Shown: positions 1,915 to 45,375 of the stretch, one piece after another | Position numbering within the stretch: position 1 is the first letter of the stretch | Layout: each line of letters starts with the position of its first letter | Source of the DNA: a virus | DNA length: 64,000 nt | Strand: one strand, 5' to 3' | Virus record (IMG/VR): IMGVR_UViG_3300035698_019895 | Span: 22,491-86,490 of that record | Notes under the pieces: generated by a model | Databases searched by the model: none | Told to the model about the DNA's origin: nothing | What the model saw: the letters and a program-made list of their open reading frames with translations, nothing else | Made by a program: the position numbers and the translations under genes

Positions 1915-2721
1915 ATGGATAAGAAATTTAAAGTTCATTTGGTAATAATTGACCCACAGTATGACTTTTGTAACTCAAAAGGTGCTCTGTTTGTAGCAGG
2001 TGCTGATAAAGATATGGAAAATTTGGCGAATATGATAGATAGAATAGGTTCTAGACTTGATGATATTCATGTTACATTGGATAGCCATCATTTAGTAGAT
2101 ATTGCTCATCCAATTTTTTGGATAGATTCTACTGGGAAACATCCAGCTCCATTCACTATTATAACTGCAGATGATGTAACGTCTGGAAAATATACCACAA
2201 CTAATCCTGCATTTTTGTCCAGAGCAATTGATTATGTTAAAGAATTAGCTAAGAACAATCGTTATCCTTTATGTATATGGCCACCTCACTGTTTAATCGG
2301 GAGTAATGGGTATAAAATAGAAGAAATTCTATATAAATCATTGTCAACTTGGGAAGAAAAGAATTTTGCAATGATTAATTTAGTTACTAAAGGTTCAAAT
2401 TTTTGGACAGAACATTATAGTGCTGTAATGGCTGATGTTCCTGACCCTAGCGACCCTCATACTATGTTAAACACCTCGTTTATAAACACTCTGAAAGAAG
2501 CAGACATTGTTGCTTTGTCAGGTGAAGCTAAATCGCATTGTCTAGCAAATACAGTTAGAGATATTGCTAACAACTTTGGAGAAGAAAATATTTCCAAATT
2601 AGTATTGTTAGATGACTGTACTTCATCAGTTACTGGGTTTGAAAAATTAGGTGATGATTTTGTTTCTGAAATGACAAAAAGAGGATTAAAAGTTTCTAAT
2701 TCTAAAGATTTCTTAAAATAA
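1915..2721 (+). CDS. pncA: Nicotinamidase / isochorismatase-family cysteine hydrolase
   Basis: IIDPQYDFC, DSH, WPPHC, KG, GEAKSHC motifs; AGGAGG RBS. Confidence 0.8.
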   Translation: MDKKFKVHLVIIDPQYDFCNSKGALFVAGADKDMENLANMIDRIGSRLDDIHVTLDSHHLVDIAHPIFWIDSTGKHPAPFTIITADDVTSGKYTTTNPAFLSRAIDYVKELAKNNRYPLCIWPPHCLIGSNGYKIEEILYKSLSTWEEKNFAMINLVTKGSNFWTEHYSAVMADVPDPSDPHTMLNTSFINTLKEADIVALSGEAKSHCLANTVRDIANNFGEENISKLVLLDDCTSSVTGFEKLGDDFVSEMTKRGLKVSNSKDFLK

Positions 2722-2739
2722 TAATAGAGGAGGATTGTC

Positions 2740-3477
2740 ATGAAATTAATGAATGAAAATATGGAAAATTTATCTATCTTAGGTGGTAAGGGAGCCTTCA
2801 ATTTCTCTGCTACTAAAATAGAGGACCTAGGTTCTACAGAGTATACTCTAGTTACTATAACATTAGATAAATCCGGTAGCGTGTCTTCTTACAGCTCTGA
2901 ATTGTTGAAGGCTTTGAAATCAATAATTAACGCTTGTAAGAAAGCACCAAGAGCAGAAAATCTATTATTGAGAATAGTAGAATTTAACAGCAAACTTCAG
3001 GAAGTTCATGGATTTAAATTGCTTAGTACGATAAATGCTGATGATTATGATGAACCAAGTCCTGACGGAATGACAGCTCTTTTTGATTCTGTCTATGATA
3101 GTGTAGGAGCAACAGCTACTTATGCTAAGAAATTGACAGAACAAGATTTTGGAGTTAATGGTATTTGTTTTATTATCACTGATGGAGCTGACAATGTTTC
3201 TGTTTCTACTCCGAATATGGTTTTAGAAATGATTAAAAAAATTAAAGTTGGAGAAGAAATAGAATCTTTGATAACTGTATTAGTTGGTATTAACACATCT
3301 CAATGCAAAGATGAATTAGAAAACTTTAAGGACGAAGCAAAGCTTACTCAATTTGTAGATGTAGGGGAAGCTACTAGTGGCAAGTTAGCCAAATTAGCTG
3401 CTTTCGTTAGTCAATCAATTAGTTCTCAAAGTCAATCTTTAGGTTCTGGTGGACCAAGTCAACAGTTAAACTTTTAG
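2740..3477 (+). CDS. vWA-domain protein (TerY-like)
   Basis: MIDAS DKSGS, TALFD, ITDGADN. Confidence 0.85.
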   Translation: MKLMNENMENLSILGGKGAFNFSATKIEDLGSTEYTLVTITLDKSGSVSSYSSELLKALKSIINACKKAPRAENLLLRIVEFNSKLQEVHGFKLLSTINADDYDEPSPDGMTALFDSVYDSVGATATYAKKLTEQDFGVNGICFIITDGADNVSVSTPNMVLEMIKKIKVGEEIESLITVLVGINTSQCKDELENFKDEAKLTQFVDVGEATSGKLAKLAAFVSQSISSQSQSLGSGGPSQQLNF

Positions 3478-3498
3478 TTGCAAGAGAAGGATATCAAT

Positions 3499-4278
3499 AT
3501 GTTAAAAATAGATTGTAAAAAAGAGACGGATAAAATAGTAAAATTTATCCAAGATACTTTCAAAGAAAAAGGATTTGAAAAAGCTGTCATTGGTGTCTCT
3601 GGTGGGTTAGATAGTGCTGTTATAGTTGCTTTATTAGTAAAAGCATTAGGCAAAGATAATGTGTGTGGTTACTATATGCCAGTAGAAACTCCTAAAGATT
3701 TTACAGGTGATGCTTATGTTGTTACTGATAGATTTAAAATTCATATGGACACTTTTGGAATTAAATCATTTATTGAGATGTTCACAACTACTTTTCTTGA
3801 CCTAGCTGCTTACAAAATTAGAACAGGAAATATTATGGCTAGAACTAGAATGATGATTTTATATGATAGGTCTGCTTTTCATAAAGCTTTAGTAGTAGGA
3901 ACAAGCAACAAGACAGAATTAACTTTGGGATATTTTACATTATATGGAGACAGTGCTTGTGCTTTAGAACCAATAGGACATTTATATAAAACACAAGTGA
4001 AACAGTTAGCAGAATATCTAGAAGTTCCTAAAAAAATTATAGAAAAAGCTCCAAGTGCAGAATTGTGGGAAGGCCAAACAGATGAAAACGAATTAGGTAT
4101 GTCTTATGAAGAAATGGATAAAATACTTTTTATAATTATGTCTCCTCAATTTAGATATTGTGATATAGAAACAATAGATTTATTAGGATATAAAGAATTA
4201 AGAGAAAAAATAGAAACACTGATAGACAACAATAGATTTAAATCAGAATCATCTAGAATAATAAGAGAACAATTATGA
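3499..4278 (+). CDS. nadE: NH3-dependent NAD+ synthetase
   Basis: GVSGGLDS, GNIMARTRM, GTSNKTE..LGYFTLYGD, PSAELWEGQTDE; no glutaminase domain; start moved from TTG 3478 to ATG 3499 (GAAGGA upstream). Confidence 0.93.
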   Translation: MLKIDCKKETDKIVKFIQDTFKEKGFEKAVIGVSGGLDSAVIVALLVKALGKDNVCGYYMPVETPKDFTGDAYVVTDRFKIHMDTFGIKSFIEMFTTTFLDLAAYKIRTGNIMARTRMMILYDRSAFHKALVVGTSNKTELTLGYFTLYGDSACALEPIGHLYKTQVKQLAEYLEVPKKIIEKAPSAELWEGQTDENELGMSYEEMDKILFIIMSPQFRYCDIETIDLLGYKELREKIETLIDNNRFKSESSRIIREQL

Positions 4279-4475
4279 AAATAGGACAGAAAGTAAAAGC
4301 ATTATCACCTTGTGATGGAAAAAGTTCGATTCAATTTGAAATAGGAAAAGTAATTTATATAGGAAGGAGAGTATTAGTAGAATTTTTTAGTAATGTATGT
4401 GGACATAATGGAAATGGAATAGGTAAGAATAGATATTGTTGGATGATTGATTTTAACAAATTACAGGAGGTATGA
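4275..4475 (+). CDS. Small hypothetical protein
   Basis: ORF overlaps nadE stop (ATGA). Confidence 0.6.
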   Translation: MKIGQKVKALSPCDGKSSIQFEIGKVIYIGRRVLVEFFSNVCGHNGNGIGKNRYCWMIDFNKLQEV

Positions 4476-4476
4476 A

Positions 4477-4745
4477 ATGAGTAATAACTCAAGAGGATTG
4501 TTTGAAATAGTAGCTGTTAGTAAAGAAAGTGATGAAATAGTGTATGGAAAAAAATAGTAGCTGAAGGAGAAAAAGAAGCTCTTTTTGAAAGCGATTTAAA
4601 AGAACAGCTTAAAGCACAGGGTTTAAAGAAAGCAGATGTTTATATAATAGTTAAAGAATTCGGTGTATTGCCTGCTAAAGAGGATGTTAAAACAGTTAAG
4701 ATTATAGGACAAGTTGGTAAAACGCTTTTAGCTAAAGAGAAATAA
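4477..4745 (+). pseudogene. Frameshifted ~89 aa hypothetical ORF (or homopolymer error / -1 slippage gene)
   Basis: AGGAGG RBS, ATG 4477; GGA AAA AAA TAG stop after an A7 run, while the -1 frame stays open to TAA 4743-4745. Confidence 0.6.
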
Positions 4746-4764
4746 TAAAGATAAGGAGATTAAA

Positions 4765-5070
4765 ATGATTACAAATATGAAAAAAATGTGTGAAATGCGT
4801 TTGTTGGTTTCTGTAAAAGAATTAAGTTGGTTCAAAGAAAATTTTCCTAGCTTTAAATGGGAAGCAGGCGATACTACTATTAAATGGAATGCTAATGAAC
4901 CAGATGAAGTAGATATGGCTAAGAAAGCATTTGAAGCATATAAGAAAAAGCATCCAAAAGCAATGGCTTTTAAAGTTAAGAGAGATGATAAAAAAGATGC
5001 TCATGAGATTAAAGAATTCGACCCAAATGCAGAAATGATATTAATGCAAGATTGGATGCATAAAGGATAA
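4765..5070 (+). CDS. Small conserved-looking protein ending in Gly (possible ubiquitin-like modifier)
   Basis: AGGAG RBS; GDTTIKW..DEV..AK.AF...EFDPNAEMIL; C-terminus WMHKG*. Confidence 0.6.
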   Translation: MITNMKKMCEMRLLVSVKELSWFKENFPSFKWEAGDTTIKWNANEPDEVDMAKKAFEAYKKKHPKAMAFKVKRDDKKDAHEIKEFDPNAEMILMQDWMHKG

Positions 5071-5071
5071 A

Positions 5072-5953
5072 ATGCAGTTTAACAAATATAGAAGCCCTAG
5101 TAGTCTTATGGAGACTCTTACTCTCCAATATCATTTACCTAGTGGAGAAGAAAAAATTGTAGGGTTAGATATAAGTCAAAGATTGCGTGGTTCTCAAGAT
5201 ACAGATTATTTTCTTCATATCGAAGAAAGAGTTAGAGAAGAATTAAAAAGAAAAGCTGATAAGGATATTAGAGAACATATAAATGAGAGAATGGGAGAAA
5301 TGACTGCTATACAATATCAGAATCAATATTCGACTTTTGTTGAAGGAAATTTTGACTATAGTGCTAATAGTACTAGTACAACAATGACCGCTGATGCAAC
5401 TACCCCTATAACTTTTGGTCCATCACCACTACTCCATTGGATGGAGACTCCAAATACTAGAAAAATTATTATTAAGTTTGAAGATGGTCGTAGAACATTA
5501 GAAATTGAAAAAACTATTGATTCTGATGTTAGAATAACTCAAGAGGATATCAACAAAGCTAGAATTAAATGGTGGGGAAATGCTAGATTTCAAGTGTTAG
5601 AACGTAAAGCAGAGAGAAAAGCTGAAGATTTATTAAAAATGTTTATAGATGAAGTTGATTTTAGAAATTATAAAGAAAAAGGTTTCTTTATAGTTAAACA
5701 AGGGAACAGAATATTTAGGATATGGAAAGATAATCATAAACATATAGACATGTGGGAAAAACGAGGACAGCTTTTCCAACCGAAAAATAGATTGTGCGTT
5801 CATACTCCTACAAGAGAAGTTCCTTTAGCGGACGAAGTTCTAAGTAAGATATTACTGATACGTTCTGGTAATGTATTAGAAAAAAGTAATCATTGGAGTG
5901 CAGAAAGTTTAGAATCTATTAAAAACGAAGAAGAATTATTAGTTAAAGTATAG
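5072..5953 (+). CDS. Hypothetical protein with C-terminal LCVH...VPLAD domain
   Basis: 293 aa ORF starting 1 nt after upstream stop; its only Cys lies in RLCVHTP. Confidence 0.65.
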   Translation: MQFNKYRSPSSLMETLTLQYHLPSGEEKIVGLDISQRLRGSQDTDYFLHIEERVREELKRKADKDIREHINERMGEMTAIQYQNQYSTFVEGNFDYSANSTSTTMTADATTPITFGPSPLLHWMETPNTRKIIIKFEDGRRTLEIEKTIDSDVRITQEDINKARIKWWGNARFQVLERKAERKAEDLLKMFIDEVDFRNYKEKGFFIVKQGNRIFRIWKDNHKHIDMWEKRGQLFQPKNRLCVHTPTREVPLADEVLSKILLIRSGNVLEKSNHWSAESLESIKNEEELLVKV

Positions 5954-5964
5954 AAAGAAATAAT

Positions 5965-6351
5965 ATGTGGAAATTTATACAGCTTTTGTTTATGTTTATA
6001 GCAGGTCATAGTATAGCAGATACCGCTTTGCAACCTGATTCTATGGGTAGAGGTAAAAGCAGACTAAGGAAAATAGATATAAGTCGTGTTCCGCCAGGAC
6101 AAAAACCACTTAATCTATGGTTCATGTGGTTAAGTCATCATTCAATAATACATGGATTTATGGTTATGTTGTTAACTTTTATGTTTACACTGGATATATC
6201 GTTTGCAATTAATCTTGGAATGATAGAAACAGTATCTCATATGACTATAGATTTTTTTAAATGTGAAGGTAAATACAGTCCTTATGTTGACCAAACTTTA
6301 CATTATCTTGTCAAAGTAGGGTTAGCTCTTGCAATATTATGGAGATTATGA
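5965..6351 (+). CDS. DUF3307-like membrane protein
   Basis: GH..AD...Q, HS.IHG, H..ID..K, DQ.LH His motifs within hydrophobic helices. Confidence 0.75.
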   Translation: MWKFIQLLFMFIAGHSIADTALQPDSMGRGKSRLRKIDISRVPPGQKPLNLWFMWLSHHSIIHGFMVMLLTFMFTLDISFAINLGMIETVSHMTIDFFKCEGKYSPYVDQTLHYLVKVGLALAILWRL

Positions 6352-6483
6352 AGAAAAGTTTAGATAAAATTATTAAAAAACTAAAGAAACTTGTAAGAAC
6401 AGAACATAAACCAATGACAAAAGCTGAGGGATTTATAGCTATAACATATTATTTTTCTACTGGGAACATAAAGGAAATATAAA

Positions 6484-6756
6484 ATGCCATACATAAAACA
6501 AGAAAAAAGGAAAGTTTTAAATAAACACGCCAGATTAGAACTGATTGGAATGGAATGTGAGAACGAAGGAGATTTAAATTATGTTCTTACTATGATATGT
6601 AAAGGATATCTAAACAAGTACGGTTTAATTAGATATGCTCGTTTAAATACTATTGTTGGTGCTTTAGAGTGTTGTAAATTAGAATTTTATCGTAGAAAAG
6701 CAGTGCCATATGAAGATATGAAAATAAAAGAATCAGGTGGTGGAGATGTATATTAA
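6484..6756 (+). CDS. Conserved phage protein (DUF6899-like)
   Basis: MPYI, GDLNY, GALECCKLEFYRR, PYED.KI...GDVY. Confidence 0.65.
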   Translation: MPYIKQEKRKVLNKHARLELIGMECENEGDLNYVLTMICKGYLNKYGLIRYARLNTIVGALECCKLEFYRRKAVPYEDMKIKESGGGDVY

Positions 6757-6816
6757 TGAGAAAACCAAGAATCAGGGAGATGTAATAATTAGTTTTAAAA
6801 AACCCAAAACAACTAA

Positions 6817-7152
6817 ATGATTAAATCTGTAAACAAACTTTGGGGATATGAAGACAAGCTTATAAATACTGAACTTTATTGTGCTAAAATTCTAGGACTA
6901 AAACATGGTTATCAATGTTCTCTTCATTATCATAAGAAAAAAGACGAAACATTTTATTGTTTAGATGGTTGTATAAAATTAGAACTAGAAGATGAAGTAT
7001 TTACTTTAGCAAAAGGACAACAGGTGAGAATTAGACCTAAACAGAAGCATAGATTTACAGCAATAACTAATACAGCAAAAATATTAGAAGTAAGTACATA
7101 TCATTCTAATAAAGATAGTTGTCGTATTGAAAAATCAAAAGAAATAAAATGA
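6817..7152 (+). CDS. Cupin (sugar isomerase-like)
   Basis: KLWGYE, SLHYHKKKDETF, HRF, LEVST. Confidence 0.8.
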   Translation: MIKSVNKLWGYEDKLINTELYCAKILGLKHGYQCSLHYHKKKDETFYCLDGCIKLELEDEVFTLAKGQQVRIRPKQKHRFTAITNTAKILEVSTYHSNKDSCRIEKSKEIK

Positions 7153-8636
7153 AATCTATATATTTAATTAATCCAAAAATAGATTTTCCAACATATTTCG
7201 GTTCGGAAATATTAAAAGAATTAAATCTAGATTCAAAAGTACTTGTTTCTGATATAGTTACCCCAACTATAGCAGCATTTGTCCCAAAAGAATTTAATGT
7301 TCAAATTTGTGATGAACGAGTTACTCCGATTGATTTTAATACTAAATCAAAGTATATTGGTATTACAGGTAAAAATGCTCAATATAAACGCATGAAAGAA
7401 ATTGCTCAAAAATTTCAAACAAAGGGTAAGACAGTTATTATAGGTGGTCCCTTCGCATCACTTAGTCCAGAAGCTGTTCGTCCTTATTGTGATATTTTAG
7501 TAAAAGGAGAGATAGAGGAAATAGCAGATGAATTATTTTCAGATTTATTACGTGGAGAATGGAAACAAGAATATACTGGGACTCGTCCAAATCCAATAAA
7601 ATCTCCTATACCGAGATGGGATTTATATCCTAATCAAAGAGCAACCACAGGAATGATACAAATTTCAAGAGGATGTCCATTTGATTGTGATTTTTGCGAT
7701 TTAAAATTATATGCAGGTCGTGGACAAAGACATAAATTAATTGAAGATGTATTAGCAGAACTAGATGTAATATATAAACATGGATATCGTCATATCTTCA
7801 TAGCAGATGATAACTTAACAGCAAATCGTAAATATGTTAAAGAATTAATGCAAGCAATAAAAGAATGGAATGAAAAACTTCCATCAGGATATGTGGGATT
7901 TGTTGCTCAATTATCTTTAGATGCAGCCAATGACGAAGAATTAGTTAAAATATGTGCTGAAGCTGGACTTACACAAATATATATTGGAATTGAAACGTTA
8001 GAACAAAACAATTTAGCTAACATTAATAAGTCACAAATTATCAATATAAATATAAAAGAAAAAATATTATTATTTTTAAAATATGGTATTTCTGTTATGG
8101 TAGGTTTGATTAGTGGTTTTGATTTCGACAATTTAGATGTTTTTGAACAACAATATCAGTTTGCTATGTCATTACCAGTTCCAATTTTTCTTTTTCAAGC
8201 ATTAATAGCATATCCAAATACTCGTATTTTTAATACATTACAAGAACAAAATAGACTTGTTAATAATATATCTACTGAAGATTTGCCTTGGGAAACAAAT
8301 ATAATACCAAAACAAATGACAAGAAAAGAACTTACTACTGGGATACGAAGATTATTTGAGAGTATATATAGTCCAGAAATGTTCGGCAAACGTTTAACTG
8401 CTTTTATTGATATTTTAGGTGAAAATAAAAGCTTGACAAAAGTGGAAAAAGATGATAGAATGAAGGTATTAATGTTCTCTGTTATTAAATATATAAGAAA
8501 ATTAGGTAAAAAAGAGCAAGAATTATGTCAGACTATTATAAAATTAATTGTTCAAAAACCAAGAACAGGATATTATCTAATACCGATATTAATTCATTAT
8601 GCTCAAATCAGTTATATGTATAGAGAGGGAAAATAA
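7149..8636 (+). CDS. Cobalamin-binding radical SAM protein (class B methyltransferase-like)
   Basis: N-terminal B12 domain (DE, IGITG, IIGGPFAS, GE.E); SRGCPFDCDFC CxxxCxxC; ADDN; GIET. Confidence 0.88.
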   Translation: MKSIYLINPKIDFPTYFGSEILKELNLDSKVLVSDIVTPTIAAFVPKEFNVQICDERVTPIDFNTKSKYIGITGKNAQYKRMKEIAQKFQTKGKTVIIGGPFASLSPEAVRPYCDILVKGEIEEIADELFSDLLRGEWKQEYTGTRPNPIKSPIPRWDLYPNQRATTGMIQISRGCPFDCDFCDLKLYAGRGQRHKLIEDVLAELDVIYKHGYRHIFIADDNLTANRKYVKELMQAIKEWNEKLPSGYVGFVAQLSLDAANDEELVKICAEAGLTQIYIGIETLEQNNLANINKSQIININIKEKILLFLKYGISVMVGLISGFDFDNLDVFEQQYQFAMSLPVPIFLFQALIAYPNTRIFNTLQEQNRLVNNISTEDLPWETNIIPKQMTRKELTTGIRRLFESIYSPEMFGKRLTAFIDILGENKSLTKVEKDDRMKVLMFSVIKYIRKLGKKEQELCQTIIKLIVQKPRTGYYLIPILIHYAQISYMYREGK

Positions 8637-9187
8637 ATGTCATTATTAACATTAAAAAAGAAGATACAAGATTGGTGGGAAATACAAACAGTTATTAGAA
8701 AAGCTTTTAATTCAAAAGGATTTTTCATAACTGTAAGCCATAAAGTAAAAACAAAAGAGAATGAAACAGATTTAAATCATTTTTGGACGACAAGAGATTT
8801 TCCTACAAAATCTATTCTTCCCTCTTTACAATCAATATTTAATGATTTAGATAAAAAAGAGCTATTATTTAATGACTTATTAAAGTCAAACAAGGAGCGA
8901 CATAATGAATAAAGCAATAAATATACCAGACTTTACAATTAATCAATTAATATATATTGTTGACTTTGATGATTTTATCATAGAACGAGGAGTGATAGCT
9001 AAACGTTATTGTGATGAGGATGATAATTATTTGTATATACTTAAAAACGATAGATTCGAAGTAGAATATGAAGAAGAAAATATGTTTAAAACTTTTCAAA
9101 CAGCTAAAAATTATATGGAAGATATTGTAAAAGAAACTTTACAAGATGTTAGAAAATTAAGTCAAAAAGATATAAGAGAGATATAAA

Positions 9188-18050: not shown

Positions 18051-20315
18051 ATGGCTTTGACTAAAAACGCTAAAAATTTATTAGAACAACGCTATTGTCA
18101 TTCTGATGAAACATATAAAGATGTATATCCTAGAGTAGCAGGTGTTTTATCTTTAGGAGATACAAGATTTGAAAAAAAGTTGCGAAAAGCCATGATGGAT
18201 GGTATATTTTTGCCTAATTCTCCTTGTTTACGAAATGCTGGTATTAAAAAAGGTATGCTTCATGCATGTTTTGTTCTTCCTATTGATGATGATATGGAAA
18301 GTATTACAGATACTATTAAAAATATGATGAATATTTTTAAACATGGAGGAGGAGTTGGTATCAATTTCAGTAAACTAAGACCGAAAGATGCAGAATTATC
18401 TGGAGGAGGAACTTCCAGTGGAGTAGTGTCTTTTATGGGCTTATTTAATACAGCTACTGAAGTAGTTAAACAAGGGGGGTTCAGACGAGGAGCTTTGATG
18501 GGAGTTTTGAATTTTGAACACGCAGAAATAATGGAATTCATCAGAAGCAAACTTACTGGTAAACTTACTAATTTTAATATATCTGTTTTAGTTAGTAATA
18601 AATTTATGGAACAAGTTGAAAAAGGAGAAATTATAGAACTTAAAAATCCTCAAGATGATAAAATTTGGGGAACAATTAATGCTAAAACTATTTTTGATGT
18701 TTTATGCTTTTCAGCATGGAACAGTGGTGACCCAGGATTTTTATTTTATGATAGAATAAATAAAGATAATATGTTATTTCCTAAAATCAAGATAAAGACA
18801 ACTAATCCTTGTTTCACAGGAGATACTGAAATAGAAACTCCTCATGGTAAAATAGCTTTTAAAGATTTTAAAATGAAATCTGTTCCAGTATATTGTTACG
18901 ATGGGAAGAAAATTAATATTAGCTGGATGAGAAACATTCGAAAAACAGGAATTCAACAAGAGGTTTGGAAATTAACTTTAGATAATAAGAAAGAAATAAA
19001 AGCTACTCCAAATCATAAATTTATGTTGAGAAGTGGAGAATATGTAGAACTTAAAGATTTAAAAATTGGCAGTAGTTTGATGCCTTTTTATAGATATAAA
19101 AGAAATTCTAAAGGATATAATCAAATAGCATTGAATAATGGGAAACATATAGGAGAAGCTCAACTAGTTTGTGAATGGTTTAATGGACGAAAAATGAAAA
19201 AAGGAGAATGTGTTCATCATAAAGATGAAGATAAGCAAAATAATAATCCTTTTAATTTAGAATTTAAAAAATCTGGTAATCATAATTCTGAACATATGAA
19301 GGGAGATAATAATCCTTCAAGAAGATTTCCTGAAAGAAATCCTATGAAACTGTATCCTGATATGTTTAAAGGTGAAAAGAATCCAATGTTTGGTCATAAA
19401 CATAGTAAGAAAACTAAAAAGAAAATAAGCGAATCACAGTTAGTAAGATTACATAATCATAAAGTTAAGAAGATAGAATTTTACGGTTATGAAGATGTTT
19501 ATTGTGGAACGGTGGATGCTTATCATAATTTTGTTTTAGAAGCCGGAGTTGTTGTTTCAAATTGTGGCGAGGTTCCTTTACCAAACTATGGAGCATGTTG
19601 TTTAGGTTCTATAAATATTAGTAAATTAGTAAAATATAATAAGTTTGATTTTGATGCGTTTGGTAAATATGTAGAATTAGCTATAAGAGCATTAAGAAAT
19701 AACAATGCTATCTCTTGGTATCCTTTACCAGAGATAACTAAGATAATGAAAGAACTAGACCCTATAGGTGTAGGTATAATGGGATTTGCAGATTGTTTAA
19801 TTAAATTGGAAATGATGTATGATAGCGAAGAGACTCTTAAATTTATAGATGAACTGGGTAAAATATATAAAGATGTAACAGATAGATTAGCAAAAAAATG
19901 TTTTTGGAAAAGAATAATCGCACCTACTGGTTCATTAAGTATATTAGCAGATTGTAGTAGTGGAATAGAACCTGTTTTCGAAGCTGCATTTGAAAGACAT
20001 CTTACCGTAGGAATAATAGAAGAAAAAAGAGAATTGTATAAGTCTAAATATTTAAGAACAGCACATCAAATAAGTCCTGAATGGCATTTAAAGATTCAGG
20101 CTCAATGGCAAAAATGGTTAGACGGAAGTATAAGTAAGACTATCAATTTACCTAATAGTGCTTCTGTAGATGATATAAAGAAAATATATATAGATGCTTG
20201 GAAAATGGGATGTAAAGGAATAACTATTTTTAGAGACGGTAGTAAAGAAGGAGTATTGAGAACAAAAACAGCTTCTGTTAGAGGAAAGTGTGAAGGAGAT
20301 AGTTGTCAACTTTAA
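18051..20315 (+). CDS. nrdJ: Class II (B12-dependent) ribonucleotide reductase with intein
   Basis: PNSP, ACFV, GGGVG, RRGA, TNP/CGE active site split by intein, APTG, SSGIEP, SKTIN, C-terminal Cys pair; no NrdB in window. Confidence 0.9.
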   Translation: MALTKNAKNLLEQRYCHSDETYKDVYPRVAGVLSLGDTRFEKKLRKAMMDGIFLPNSPCLRNAGIKKGMLHACFVLPIDDDMESITDTIKNMMNIFKHGGGVGINFSKLRPKDAELSGGGTSSGVVSFMGLFNTATEVVKQGGFRRGALMGVLNFEHAEIMEFIRSKLTGKLTNFNISVLVSNKFMEQVEKGEIIELKNPQDDKIWGTINAKTIFDVLCFSAWNSGDPGFLFYDRINKDNMLFPKIKIKTTNPCFTGDTEIETPHGKIAFKDFKMKSVPVYCYDGKKINISWMRNIRKTGIQQEVWKLTLDNKKEIKATPNHKFMLRSGEYVELKDLKIGSSLMPFYRYKRNSKGYNQIALNNGKHIGEAQLVCEWFNGRKMKKGECVHHKDEDKQNNNPFNLEFKKSGNHNSEHMKGDNNPSRRFPERNPMKLYPDMFKGEKNPMFGHKHSKKTKKKISESQLVRLHNHKVKKIEFYGYEDVYCGTVDAYHNFVLEAGVVVSNCGEVPLPNYGACCLGSINISKLVKYNKFDFDAFGKYVELAIRALRNNNAISWYPLPEITKIMKELDPIGVGIMGFADCLIKLEMMYDSEETLKFIDELGKIYKDVTDRLAKKCFWKRIIAPTGSLSILADCSSGIEPVFEAAFERHLTVGIIEEKRELYKSKYLRTAHQISPEWHLKIQAQWQKWLDGSISKTINLPNSASVDDIKKIYIDAWKMGCKGITIFRDGSKEGVLRTKTASVRGKCEGDSCQL
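18810..19562 (+). mobile_element. Intein (251 aa) with HNH endonuclease and NUMOD3-like motif
   Basis: Starts CFTGDT, block B ATPNHKF, VHHKDEDKQNNNPFNL (HNH), NPMFGHKHS..TKKKIS, ends HNF......VSN followed by Cys. Confidence 0.92.
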
Positions 20316-44213: not shown

Positions 44214-44385
44214 AGAAAAAAAAGAAGAGAATTCCAGTAACTAAAAGACAATTAGATTGGGTTACTGAATATGTAATGATTGGTACTGCTGATATGTTTA
44301 CAGATTGGTGGACAGAAAAGGGTAAGAAAATATTTCTTAAATGGGCAATAAAAAGAAAAGCAGATTTTTAAATAAGGAGGATTGT

Positions 44386-45375
44386 ATGGTAAAAATTAGA
44401 AAAGGAAGTAAAATTAAGTTGAAAGAAACAAAGAAGGAAGTAAGAAAGCCATTTGTAAATTTTATTAATGATTTAGAAATAGCAGAATCTATTTCATATA
44501 AGAAATTACATTTGTTTCCTGTATTTAGACAGACTTTGAAAGATATTAAATTAAAAACATTAGCAGAAGCATTAAAAGAAGATATTATTGAAGTTAAAGA
44601 AACAGGAACAGTATCAGAATTAGAAATAGTTAATAAATCAAAAGATACTAAAGTATTAATTATGGAAGGTGATATTGTAAAAGGTGGAGCCCAAAACAGA
44701 GTTATAAATGTTTCTATGATTTTAGATGAAGACTCAACTGTAAAAGTTCCAACAACTTGTGTTCAAAAAAATAGATGGGATAATTTCGACGCTCCTTTTA
44801 AGGGATATAAATATTCATCTCCCAGTTTCGGACTTAATCTACATGAATCTGTAAGTAAGAATATGTTATGCTCACGAGGTACATCTGCTTATGCTGCTAA
44901 TCAAAGTAAGATATGGGAAGATGTTGAGTGTCATTTATCGGAAGGTGGAGTTGAAGATGCTTCTAAAAATTTTACGAAGCTTTATGATGAAAAGAAAGAT
45001 GATATTAAAGAATATGAAAAAGCATTTAAAGAAAAATTTCCACTTAAAGATAAATCACTAGTCGGTGTAGTTATTGTAATAGGTAATATGTGTAAAGTAG
45101 ATAATTGTGTAGATAATGATGTATTTTTAGCTCATTGTGAAGGACTATTAGAAGGATGTTTTCTAGATGCAGTTAATAACAAAGATGATGTGAGTGCAAT
45201 GTCAGTAAAAGATGTTAGTGATTTTATTGATGGATTAATTAAATGTGAGATTACTGAATTTAAAACTCCAAATAAAAACGCTGAAAATTTAGTTATTAAA
45301 GGTGATAAAGTTAAAGGAAATGTTTTGATATATAATGAGGAAGTAATTCATTTAACAGCATTTTTGGAAAGATAA
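44386..45375 (+). CDS. ARPP-1 / DUF6569-family protein
   Basis: V.E.G.V..L...N, G....GG.QNR, CV...RW, Q..IW; ATG 44386 has AGGAGG RBS. Confidence 0.75.
   Translation: MVKIRKGSKIKLKETKKEVRKPFVNFINDLEIAESISYKKLHLFPVFRQTLKDIKLKTLAEALKEDIIEVKETGTVSELEIVNKSKDTKVLIMEGDIVKGGAQNRVINVSMILDEDSTVKVPTTCVQKNRWDNFDAPFKGYKYSSPSFGLNLHESVSKNMLCSRGTSAYAANQSKIWEDVECHLSEGGVEDASKNFTKLYDEKKDDIKEYEKAFKEKFPLKDKSLVGVVIVIGNMCKVDNCVDNDVFLAHCEGLLEGCFLDAVNNKDDVSAMSVKDVSDFIDGLIKCEITEFKTPNKNAENLVIKGDKVKGNVLIYNEEVIHLTAFLER

What the first reader, a model, noticed from the sequence alone, without database searches (positions are those of the whole stretch)
4765..5953. Candidate minimal ubiquitin-like conjugation pair: Gly-terminated small protein plus single-Cys partner
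Seen: a 101 aa protein ending ...EFDPNAEMILMQDWMHKG*, followed 1 nt later by a protein whose C-terminal domain has its only Cys in LCVH...VPLADEVL. From memory (not verified), uncharacterised relatives of the small protein often end in GG and sit beside the same LCxH partner. Inference: a modifier with a reactive C-terminal Gly and a Cys-dependent carrier, ligase or peptidase, i.e. a stripped-down phage protein conjugation system or a decoy of host Ubl defences (Bil, CBASS E1-E2). No E1 or JAB gene is visible in the window.
Basis: inference. Interest (0 to 1): 0.7.

Follow-up and report, generated by a model that had tools for sequence, protein, structure and literature searches.

The report
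Phage ubiquitin-like protein with cysteine partner
An uncultured salt-lake phage carries a tightly coupled gene pair, a small ubiquitin-shaped protein that always ends in glycine and a partner with one never-changing cysteine predicted to hold that tail, which may be an undescribed protein-tagging kit that lacks its own activating enzyme.

Summary
Window 4765-5070 encodes a 101-aa protein ending HKG; one base later, 5072-5953 encodes a 293-aa protein whose only Cys is C242 in NRLCVH.

This is the Lys-Gly-ended branch of a large viral family with no Pfam or PHROGs model. A profile search found 1929 cluster representatives; of the 148 new ones among the best 150, 134 end in Gly and 127 in Gly-Gly. 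The partner lies directly downstream in 24 of 24 loci with at least 800 nt of downstream DNA. Its Cys is kept in 55 of 55.

No E1 or JAB gene was found in the phage's own record or in three near-complete relatives. The partner matched no E2 fold or family, though its C-domain was never folded alone.

Best reading (0.4): an E1-less ubiquitin-like module with Gly-Cys acyl chemistry. This is untested; a plain non-covalent complex is the main rival.

Earlier notes of this scan describe the same kind of pair on other genomes. My six literature searches found no paper on it.

The parts
4765..5070 (+). Gene for the 101-aa ubiquitin-like small protein, Lys-Gly-ended subfamily. Gly101 codon is 5065-5067; stop is 5068-5070.
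   Evidence: ORF. 45 homologues at 61-88% identity. 45 of 46 end in KG. The model has pLDDT 83 with order b-a-b-a-b-b-b. Fold hits are weak but consistently beta-grasp. It is a single copy in the record.
5072..5953 (+). Gene for the 293-aa partner protein, which has a single Cys.
   Evidence: ORF. 26 homologues. No Pfam or PHROGs family. Model has pLDDT 78.5.
5072..5302 (+). Partner N-terminal domain (residues 1-77). It evolves fast and its predicted fold is LptE-like.
5303..5449 (+). Low-complexity Ser/Thr/Asn-rich linker (residues 78-126), predicted disordered.
   Evidence: pLDDT is below 50 for residues 78-126. These alignment columns are poorly conserved.
5453..5950 (+). Partner conserved C-terminal region (residues 128-293): hairpin, long helix 157-191, four strands 205-242, Cys loop, then helices 252-271. 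This is the part predicted to bind the small protein.
   Evidence: Secondary structure; conservation. Predicted interface residues are 173-191, 242-247, 249-254 and 257-273. No known fold or family was found.
5795..5797 (+). Codon of the invariant Cys242 (TGC) in NRLCVH.
   Evidence: Cys is present in 55 of 55 partner sequences that cover the column. The His at +2 is present in 47 of 55, the Pro nine residues on in 54 of 54, and the Asp twelve residues on in 53 of 54. Residues 242-247 lie in the predicted interface together with tail residues 95-101 of the small protein.

Best explanation
The two genes form one module made by a large lytic-type phage, in the middle of its replication and nucleotide-metabolism operon.

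Shown or computed: the small protein is a ubiquitin-sized, beta-grasp-like protein whose last residue must be a free glycine. The partner's conserved C-terminal domain is predicted to clamp it. Two helices of the partner pack on the conserved Gly-Asp turn of the small protein. The small protein's C-terminal tail is laid along the loop that carries the invariant Cys242.

Inferred: the Gly carboxyl group becomes linked to Cys242 as an acyl-thioester. The small protein is then passed to an amine, either a lysine of the partner itself or of a phage or host protein, or it is released again.

The module has no activating enzyme. Activation would therefore come from one of two sources. One is the host's ThiF/MoeB-type adenylating enzymes. 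The other, as reported for the stand-alone E2 of E2-CBASS, is the Cys domain itself cutting a peptide bond after the Gly. That bond exists in the natural fused and extended forms.

The window's copy is a variant that ends in Lys-Gly instead of Gly-Gly, has an extra N-terminal strand and helix, and has a partner with an extra N-terminal domain.
For: (1) Terminal Gly. 45 of 46 close homologues end in KG. Of the 148 new representatives among the best 150 hits, 134 end in G and 127 in GG; the family has 1929 representatives at E<=1e-3. The profile match mostly runs to the last residue. N-terminal extensions and tandem forms occur, but the C-terminus stays free.

(2) Precursor-like forms, as in ubiquitin systems. 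11 of the 14 representatives that do not end in G carry GG followed by an extension: 1-7 residues in nine, long in two. Two of 35 distinct loci read on in frame past GG: L031 as a full fusion with the partner, L029 up to the contig end.

(3) Linkage. The partner follows in 24 of 24 loci with at least 800 nt downstream. No other neighbour is conserved across the subfamilies.

(4) Invariant Cys in 55 of 55 partners, despite about 20% identity between subfamilies.

(5) Predicted complex. ipSAE 0.84 (three runs: 0.84, 0.86, 0.83); best of 3 controls 0.01. That mark was reached by 58 of 80 solved complexes and 2 of 110 mismatched pairs. Runs agree in at least 97% of contacts and the scored small-protein chain has pLDDT of at least 89. 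The interface includes partner residues 242-254 and small-protein residues 95-101.

(6) Fold. All weak Foldseek hits and nearly all VIA rows are ubiquitin-superfold or beta-grasp domains.

(8) Precedent for E1-free Gly-Cys chemistry. In E2-CBASS the CD-NTase tail lies in the E2 pocket, the E2 cuts off C-terminal extensions, it forms thioester and isopeptide links, and natural fusions are reported (10.1101/2022.05.25.493364, abstract and sections 4 and 6; PMC12948482, abstract and sections 7 and 8).
Against: No covalent bond has been shown, and a predicted complex cannot show one.

Most family members already end in a free Gly, so peptide-bond cleavage cannot supply the energy for them. No E1 (ThiF) was found in the phage's own record. 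None was found in four other carrier records, three of them 97-100% complete. The single ThiF hit, in a fifth record that is 26% complete, lies roughly 27 kb from the pair.

The partner gave no E2/UBC, RWD or peptidase match by Pfam, by PDB sequence profile, by profile-profile comparison or by fold search.

The His next to the Cys is replaced by Gln, Leu, Ile or Tyr in 8 of 55 partners, so a Cys-His dyad at that spacing is not general.

Much of the conservation on both proteins lies in the predicted interface. A purely non-covalent complex would explain that equally well.
Confidence: 0.4

Rival explanations
1. The two proteins form a purely non-covalent heterodimer. The small protein is a regulatory or structural subunit. 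Its C-terminal carboxylate is a binding determinant held by a pocket. The Cys is structural, a redox sensor or a ligand rather than a nucleophile.
For: The predicted interface contains most of the conserved residues of both proteins: small-protein residues 33-36 (A34, G35, D36 among them) with partner residues 180-187 and 254-265. There is no activating enzyme. The partner has no enzyme-like fold match. The His next to the Cys is not invariant.
Against: This does not explain why the chain must stop exactly at Gly in 134 of 148 divergent representatives. It does not explain why extensions begin right after GG in 11 of the other 14. It does not explain why a single Cys stays invariant in 55 of 55 at about 20% identity. 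The most conserved motif of the small protein, FDPNAE at residues 85-90, is not listed in the predicted interface. That hints at a further binding partner, though an unlisted residue is only uncertain.
Confidence: 0.3
2. The pair is a sulfur-carrier system like MoaD-MoaE or ThiS-ThiG. The host's MoeB/ThiF and a cysteine desulfurase would turn the terminal Gly into a thiocarboxylate. The partner would then use it, with its Cys as a relay, to put sulfur into a nucleotide, DNA or cofactor.
For: The pattern fits the sulfur-carrier systems (established knowledge; Iyer et al. 2006, PMC1779556, passages): beta-grasp, free Gly or GG end, tail laid into the partner, and no E1 of its own. The pair sits among nucleotide and DNA metabolism genes here. 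In relatives it sits near QueD/QueE-like, DHFR-like and MazG-like ORFs; I named those from reading the translations and did not test them.
Against: None of the 55 scanned family members matched ThiS/MoaD or any other real Pfam family. The conserved part of the partner is only about 90-140 residues and has no cofactor or substrate-binding motif that I could recognise. Partner N-terminal regions are unrelated between subfamilies. No sulfur-metabolism gene is a conserved neighbour.
Confidence: 0.12
3. The pair is an anti-defence device. The small protein would be a decoy or suicide substrate for host ubiquitin-like immune systems (Bil, Bub, type II CBASS Cap2/Cap3). The partner would be its chaperone or a deconjugating Cys peptidase.
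For: A Gly-ended beta-grasp is what the E1 enzymes of those systems adenylate (PMC10557695, abstract). The pair is phage-borne. I retrieved one locus from the genome collection of 185,579 species, using one narrow peptide pattern. Extensions and fusions after GG call for some peptidase.
Against: The family is very broad: 1929 representatives, from 29% to 66% GC phages. The small protein is strongly conserved. That fits a core phage function better than a counter to sporadic defence systems. The tight obligatory pairing is not needed for a decoy.
Confidence: 0.08

Closest known systems
E2-CBASS: stand-alone bacterial E2 with CD-NTase CdnG/cGAS (Serratia marcescens). Yan et al., bioRxiv 10.1101/2022.05.25.493364 (abstract, sections 4 and 6 read); Xiao et al., PMC12948482 (abstract, sections 7 and 8 read).
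   Same: It is a two-gene unit with no E1. A conserved C-terminal Gly lies on a tail that sits in the pocket of a small single-active-Cys protein. The Cys protein removes residues or fusions after the Gly and becomes covalently linked. Natural fusions of the two genes are reported. In the family here the tail is predicted on the Cys loop, there are GG-plus-extension forms, and there are two in-frame read-ons.
   Different: There the Gly-bearing protein is a 46-kDa nucleotidyltransferase of a bacterial defence system, and the Cys protein has a recognisable UBC fold. Here the Gly-bearing protein is a 75-101-aa beta-grasp-like protein of phages. The Cys domain gave no E2 match by sequence, profile or fold. 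Most copies already end at the Gly.
Bil (BilABCD) and related bacterial ubiquitination-like operons. Chambers et al., PMC10557695 (abstract read); Hor et al., 10.1101/2023.09.04.556158 (start of abstract in the search listing).
   Same: A small beta-grasp Ubl with a C-terminal Gly that must be exposed. It sits in a phage-bacterium conflict setting. Thioester chemistry runs through catalytic cysteines.
   Different: Bil has an E1, an E2 and a JAB peptidase in the operon and is host-encoded. The module here has none of these and is phage-encoded.
Sulfur carriers and dual-use modifiers: MoaD, ThiS, Urm1, SAMPs, TtuB. Iyer et al. 2006, PMC1779556 (passages); Ravichandran et al. 2022, PMC9574740 (start of abstract in the listing).
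   Same: Small beta-grasp proteins made with a free GG end. The tail inserts into a partner enzyme. An E2 is not needed. Urm1 conjugation is coupled to a target cysteine.
   Different: Those need a ThiF/MoeB/Uba4-type E1, which is absent here. The family here gave no Pfam match to ThiS/MoaD (0 of 55).
Lambda/T1 tail assembly protein I (TAPI), a Ubl, with the TAPK JAB plus NlpC/P60 peptidase. Iyer et al. 2006, PMC1779556 (passages read).
   Same: It is the phage-encoded ubiquitin-like domain that paper describes. It has a conserved C-terminal Gly and an adjacent peptidase gene, with fusions between the two.
   Different: TAPI lies in the tail module next to JAB and NlpC/P60 peptidases. The pair here lies among replication and metabolism genes. 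I found no JAB, and no papain-like fold appeared in the fold-search listings.

Membership tests
Ubiquitin-like beta-grasp modifiers and carriers (ubiquitin, SUMO, Urm1, SAMP, ThiS, MoaD) | Beta-grasp fold | tested here: inconclusive
Ubiquitin-like beta-grasp modifiers and carriers | Exposed C-terminal Gly (usually Gly-Gly) at the end of a flexible tail, either made free or freed by cleavage | tested here: met
   45 of 46 end in KG. 134 of 148 end in G and 127 of 148 in GG; 11 of the other 14 have GG plus an extension. The tail has low model confidence: residue 101 has pLDDT 41.
Ubiquitin-like beta-grasp modifiers and carriers | Sequence membership in a described family (Pfam ubiquitin, ThiS, Urm1 and the like) | tested here: not met
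   The window protein gave no Pfam family above E 0.07. Of 55 family members scanned, 0 matched any ubiquitin or ThiS family, and 0 of 55 matched PHROGs. The PDB profile search gave nothing below E 0.07.
Ubiquitin-like beta-grasp modifiers and carriers | A cognate E1-type adenylating enzyme (ThiF/MoeB/Uba family) | tested here: not met
   The ThiF model gave 0 matches in the own record, which is 60% complete. It gave 0 in four other carrier records, at 100%, 100%, 97% and 80% completeness. It gave 1 match in a fifth record, roughly 27 kb from the pair. A host E1 acting in trans cannot be excluded.
Ubiquitin-like beta-grasp modifiers and carriers | Covalent thioester, isopeptide or thiocarboxylate at the terminal Gly | not testable with these tools
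   This needs protein biochemistry.
E2 / UBC superfamily (including bacterial Prok-E2 families and the CBASS E2) | UBC fold: N-terminal helix, four-strand meander, active-site loop, C-terminal helices | tested here: inconclusive
   The order of secondary-structure elements in residues 157-271 is compatible: helix, four strands, Cys loop, helices. No E2, UEV or RWD chain appeared in Foldseek PDB, VIA wide, VIA on Foldseek's top 998 or BFVD. Earlier notes of this scan call the domain E2/RWD-like; I could not reproduce or refute that.
E2 / UBC superfamily | Sequence or profile similarity to E2 families | tested here: not met
   None of the window partner and 10 distant partners gave a Pfam E2 hit at E<=0.1. 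hhalign of the partner C-domain alignment against eight Prok-E2_B domains gave probability 0.4%. That E2 profile is thin, so this is a weak negative.
E2 / UBC superfamily | Catalytic Cys downstream of a His-Pro-Asn-type motif (motif recalled from memory) | tested here: not met
   The Cys is invariant in 55 of 55, but the order is reversed: Cys-x-His-(Thr/Pro). The His is kept in only 47 of 55. The eight Prok-E2_B domains I fetched show His about 7 residues before the Cys.
JAB or papain-like deubiquitinases (as in lambda TAPK and BilC) | JAB/MPN metal site or papain-like Cys-His fold next to the Ubl gene | tested here: not met
   Prok-JAB and JAB models gave 0 matches in the own record. No match above the cut-off was found in five carrier records. 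The partner gave no peptidase family in Pfam. No papain-like chain is listed, which for the C-domain is inconclusive.

The most novel reading that the evidence does not exclude
This would be a self-contained viral ubiquitin-like tagging system with only two genes. A new, non-UBC cysteine domain would load a ubiquitin-sized protein onto its own Cys through the terminal Gly without any E1. Energy would come from cleaving a fused or extended precursor, or the domain would capture a host-activated form. The domain would then transfer the small protein to lysines of phage or host proteins during infection. The Lys-Gly branch in this window would be a second specificity class of that system.
Probability: 0.25. 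Interest if true: 0.9.

Novelty: new variant of a known kind. Interest (0 to 1): 0.68.

Why it matters
Ubiquitin-type tagging in bacteria and phages has so far been described as host defence (Bil, Bub, type II CBASS) or as the lambda tail-assembly Ubl.

The family here has about 1900 sequence clusters in uncultured phages and no Pfam or PHROGs model. In my three tblastn searches with Gly-Gly-type members, only 2 of 50,697 GenBank phage records held a relative. The window's own proteins matched none. If it is a tagging system, it would be a virus-owned one.

If the Cys domain really forms a bond with the Gly end without an E1, that would be a new minimal chemistry for protein conjugation and possibly a compact tool for it. 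If it is instead a non-covalent clamp, it is still a very common unknown phage module whose role in replication-stage infection is open.

The test is cheap: co-express two small proteins and run a gel and a mass spectrum.

Tried and rejected
Known-family searches that found nothing:
- Pfam and PHROGs on both window proteins.
- Pfam and PHROGs on 55 family members.
- Pfam on 10 distant partners.
- PDB sequence profiles.
- ESM Atlas, which returned only unnamed 'hypothetical' viral and bacterial clusters.

The E2 idea was tested by hhalign against eight Prok-E2_B domains: probability 0.4%.

Fused forms were sought with the search for homologous proteins, lengths 'longer', on A4: none found. The tool itself calls that weak evidence.

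A conserved third gene was sought by all-against-all BLAST of neighbours in 20 loci. None is shared across subfamilies. A vWA-like gene lies within 1.3 kb in the window and in the near-identical L023/L024 loci only. NAD synthase is a neighbour only in the window and L001.

Promoter and terminator scan of 2500-9000: fewer promoter-like sites than in shuffles, and one terminator-like site inside the partner gene. Nothing usable.

No RNA holder was listed among the sequencing runs, so nothing can be said on expression.

A Cys-His catalytic dyad at Cys-x-His was rejected as general, because the His is lost in 8 of 55.

I considered that Lys100 of the small protein pairs with Glu255 of the partner. 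Glu is present in the Lys-Gly branch and mostly absent in the Gly-Gly branch. That is two clades only, so I left it as a hint.

Literature searches found no paper on this family. Supplementary files were not opened and may hold family lists that I could not see.
Full report
**What is there.** The window is 29% G+C and is part of an 86.5-kb viral record that CheckV rates about 60% complete. Near-identical pieces occur in contigs of three salt-lake metagenome runs. On the + strand, inside a long co-directional gene array, lie two ORFs. One is 4765..5070 (101 aa, ending MHKG). The other is 5072..5953 (293 aa), starting one base after the first gene's stop. The 293-aa protein has a single Cys, C242, in NRLCVH. 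The surrounding genes are:
- a vWA-like protein and NAD synthase upstream;
- a DUF3307 membrane protein, DUF6899, a cupin and a B12-type radical SAM protein downstream;
- further on, a RecA-like protein, a family B DNA polymerase, a ribonucleotide reductase with an intein, a CCA/poly(A) polymerase-like enzyme and a sliding clamp.

So the pair sits in the replication and auxiliary-metabolism region of a large phage, not in a structural module. The record holds one copy of the pair.

**The family of the small protein.** Neither protein matches Pfam or PHROGs or any of 50,697 GenBank phage records. The word-indexed protein search gave 45 homologues of the small protein at 61-88% identity, and 45 of the 46 aligned sequences end in Lys-Gly. 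The one exception diverges after about residue 68.

Scans of viral contigs brought in a more distant branch of 75-96-aa proteins. These share the invariant FDPNAE motif, keep the same number of residues from that motif to the last Gly in the A3 alignment, and end in Gly-Gly or Ala-Gly.

A profile of both branches, scored against 1.84 billion cluster representatives, found 1929 proteins at E<=0.001 and 629 at E<=1e-10. Of the 148 new ones among the best 150:
- 134 end in Gly and 127 in Gly-Gly;
- 11 of the other 14 carry Gly-Gly at the aligned place followed by an extension, 1-7 residues in nine and long in two, one of those being DUF6197.

N-terminal extensions and tandem two-domain forms occur, but the C-terminus stays at the Gly. 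None of 55 scanned members hits a ubiquitin/ThiS-type Pfam family or any PHROG. In a collection of one genome per 185,579 prokaryote species, one narrow peptide pattern found a single locus, a contig of a Gallionella MAG. In GenBank phages only two uncultured records carry a relative. The family is thus common in metagenomic phages and nearly absent from what has been cultured, which fits its being undescribed.

**The partner and the linkage.** 26 homologues of the partner were found. Their N-terminal half is only 18-27% identical to the window's, and the C-terminal 144 residues 45-65%. For that comparison I paired each partner with a small protein by equal contig length, which is an inference.

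I built an HMM of the partner C-domain and searched all ORFs of the loci, which had been fished with the small protein alone. Among 35 distinct small genes, a partner lies directly downstream on the same strand in 24 of 24 loci with at least 800 nt of downstream DNA. It is also present in 3 of 11 with less, and a fourth, L033, gave a weak hit. L027, with 790 nt downstream, has other small ORFs instead.

Gaps run from an 8-nt overlap to 17 nt in most loci. L019 has 138 nt. One phage (L003 = L017 = L044) has a 241-aa ORF inserted between the two genes. L035 has two partner paralogues in tandem.

In the partner C-domain the Cys is present in 55 of 55 sequences that cover the column. The His two residues later is present in 47 of 55 (otherwise Gln, Leu, Ile or Tyr). 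A Pro nine residues after the Cys is present in 54 of 54, and an Asp twelve residues after it in 53 of 54. No third gene is conserved across the subfamilies. The Lys-Gly branch keeps a 66-aa gene upstream in 5 of 5 loci and a gene of about 95 aa in the 3 viral-contig loci that clustered (L001-L003).

**Fusions.** In L031 the small gene runs in frame, without a stop, from ...AMQGG into a full partner, giving a 362-aa ORF. In L029 the frame also continues past ...AMQGG to the end of the contig. These two cases, together with the short extensions after GG, are what one sees for ubiquitin-type precursors. They call for a peptidase that cuts after the Gly. The only conserved candidate is the partner.

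**Structures.** The small protein's model (pLDDT 83, pTM 0.69) has the order strand-helix-strand-helix-strand-strand-strand. The Gly-Gly branch lacks the first strand and helix in the alignment, which leaves a ubiquitin-length core.

- Foldseek against the PDB gave no hit at E<=0.001. Every one of the better weak hits (E 0.04-0.5) is a ubiquitin-superfold domain: RA, UBX, SUMO, RBD or PB1.

The partner's model (pLDDT 78.5) has four parts:
- a disordered linker, residues 78-126;
- a hairpin and a long helix, 157-191;
- four strands ending at Cys242, a loop, and helices 252-271.

That order is compatible with an E2/RWD-type layout. No E2, UEV or RWD chain was listed in any search. A profile-profile comparison with eight bacterial Prok-E2_B domains gave probability 0.4%. 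The Cys also precedes the His rather than following it.

**Predicted complex.** The small protein with partner residues 128-293, each supplied with its own alignment, scored ipSAE 0.84 (runs 0.84, 0.86, 0.83). The best of three controls scored 0.01. That mark was reached by 58 of 80 solved complexes and 2 of 110 mismatched pairs, though these counts hold only roughly with my own alignments. The runs agree in at least 97% of contacts and the scored small-protein chain has pLDDT of at least 89.

The interface joins the partner's helices (173-191, 253-273) to small-protein residues 12-20 (its extra N-terminal strand and helix) and to its conserved turn at residues 33-36. It also contains partner residues 242-247 and 249-251 and tail residues 95-101 of the small protein. 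The model supports binding and a tail-on-Cys-loop geometry. It shows neither, and it cannot show a bond. I know of no solved like complex, so this pass is probably not from memory.

**Activating enzyme.**
- The ThiF model gave 0 matches in the own record. It gave 0 in four other records that carry the pair, at CheckV completeness 100%, 100%, 97% and 80%.
- It gave 1 match in a fifth record (26% complete), roughly 27 kb from the pair. My HMMs of the two families found no match among the ORFs of the two short loci fetched there, L047 and L048.
- Prok-JAB gave nothing above the cut-off in those five records.
- Prok-JAB and JAB/MPN gave nothing in the own record.

**Reading.** Four points are shown or computed:
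- a conserved, translationally coupled two-gene phage module;
- an obligatory Gly end;
- an invariant partner Cys;
- a confident predicted complex that brings the two together.

It is inferred that the Gly is acylated onto the Cys and passed on. The nearest documented chemistry is E2-CBASS. There a lone E2 holds the CD-NTase tail in its pocket, removes what follows the conserved Gly, and forms thioester and isopeptide links without an E1. Fusions of the two genes are reported (10.1101/2022.05.25.493364, abstract and sections 4 and 6; PMC12948482, abstract and sections 7 and 8).

Against the covalent reading:
- most family members already end in a free carboxylate, so they would need a host E1;
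- no enzyme-like fold was recognised;
- interface conservation alone could explain much of the pattern.

I put the covalent module at 0.4, a non-covalent clamp at 0.3, a sulfur-carrier pair at 0.12, an anti-defence decoy at 0.08, and something else for the rest.

**Relation to earlier notes of this scan.** Look-ups by words show that the same kind of pair has been reported many times on other genomes. Each is a Gly-Gly protein plus a Cys-x-His-Pro partner with no E1, and the readings were similar. Some notes mention an E2/RWD-like fold, a three-gene version with an E1, and two cultured carriers. These are unchecked AI notes and I did not count them as evidence. They gave me the E2-CBASS papers, which I then read.

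This window adds the Lys-Gly-ended branch. Its small protein has an extra N-terminal strand and helix that joins the predicted interface. Its partner has Cys-x-His-Thr and an added LptE-like N-terminal domain. Look-ups by sequence found no look-alike stretch in other windows.

**Novelty and score.** Six literature searches found no description of the family. The phage Ubl I found in print is lambda TAPI with its JAB/NlpC peptidase (PMC1779556, passages). I class the finding as a new variant of a known kind (ubiquitin-like systems), of high interest if the chemistry is real, but with the mechanism still unproven.

Noticed in passing
window 4447-4745 (A-run at 4548-4554): The gene just upstream of the small gene is conserved as one ORF of 92-111 aa in L001-L003. 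Here it is split by a frameshift at a run of seven A: GGA AAA AAA TAG. A -1 slip on A-AAA-AAA, or an eighth A, would restore the conserved ...KKIVAEGEKE... reading. One low-depth contig of run X1 has two extra A at this run, which does not restore the frame. Contigs of run X2 agree with the window. It may be a homopolymer error, a broken gene or programmed slippage.
   Followed up: partly
window 4275-4475: A 66-aa protein with a CGH...C motif lies upstream of the pair in all 5 Lys-Gly-branch loci examined, at 285 nt to 2.2 kb. It has no real family match. It may be a third component of this branch.
   Followed up: partly
L031 7974-9062; L029 822-1178: These are natural in-frame read-ons from the Gly-Gly end of the small protein. 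L031 runs into a complete partner (362-aa ORF). L029 runs on to the contig end. They may be real fusions or single-contig errors.
   Followed up: partly
L003 10295-11020 (= L017, L044): A 241-aa ORF is inserted between the small gene and the partner in one phage. From reading its translation it looks like a homing-endonuclease-type protein; I did not test that.
   Followed up: no
L035 5665-6633 and 6778-7725; P0091, P0094, P0181, P0201: Two partner paralogues lie in tandem after one small gene that ends in Gln-Gly. Separately, there are small proteins made of two tandem domains, of which only the last keeps the Gly end.
   Followed up: no
G005 (record of L014) about 72280-74832; loci L047, L048: A 191-aa minimal ThiF-type ORF (E 4e-27) and a weak Prok-JAB-like ORF (E 2e-4, below cut-off) lie roughly 27 kb from the pair in one incomplete phage record. 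My HMMs of the two families found no match among the ORFs of L047 and L048.
   Followed up: partly
window 2740-3477; L023 2034-2645; L024 8010-8621: A vWA-like gene with a DxSGS motif lies within 1.3 kb of the pair in the window and in the near-identical L023/L024 loci. It did not cluster in the other loci examined.
   Followed up: no
window 18051-20315: The ribonucleotide reductase large subunit is interrupted by an intein with HNH and NUMOD3 motifs.
   Followed up: no
window 44341-45375: A protein with a full-length ARPP-1 domain (ARG and rhodanese-phosphatase-superfamily-associated; E 1e-58) is encoded in this phage.
   Followed up: no
partners of the Gly-Gly branch, e.g. L008 6176-6748, L004 5422-5979, L007 10203-10979: The N-terminal regions of these partners carry two or three Trp-x-x-Trp-Asn-like repeats in place of the window's LptE-like domain. 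I saw this by eye in the translations. Their role is unknown.
   Followed up: no
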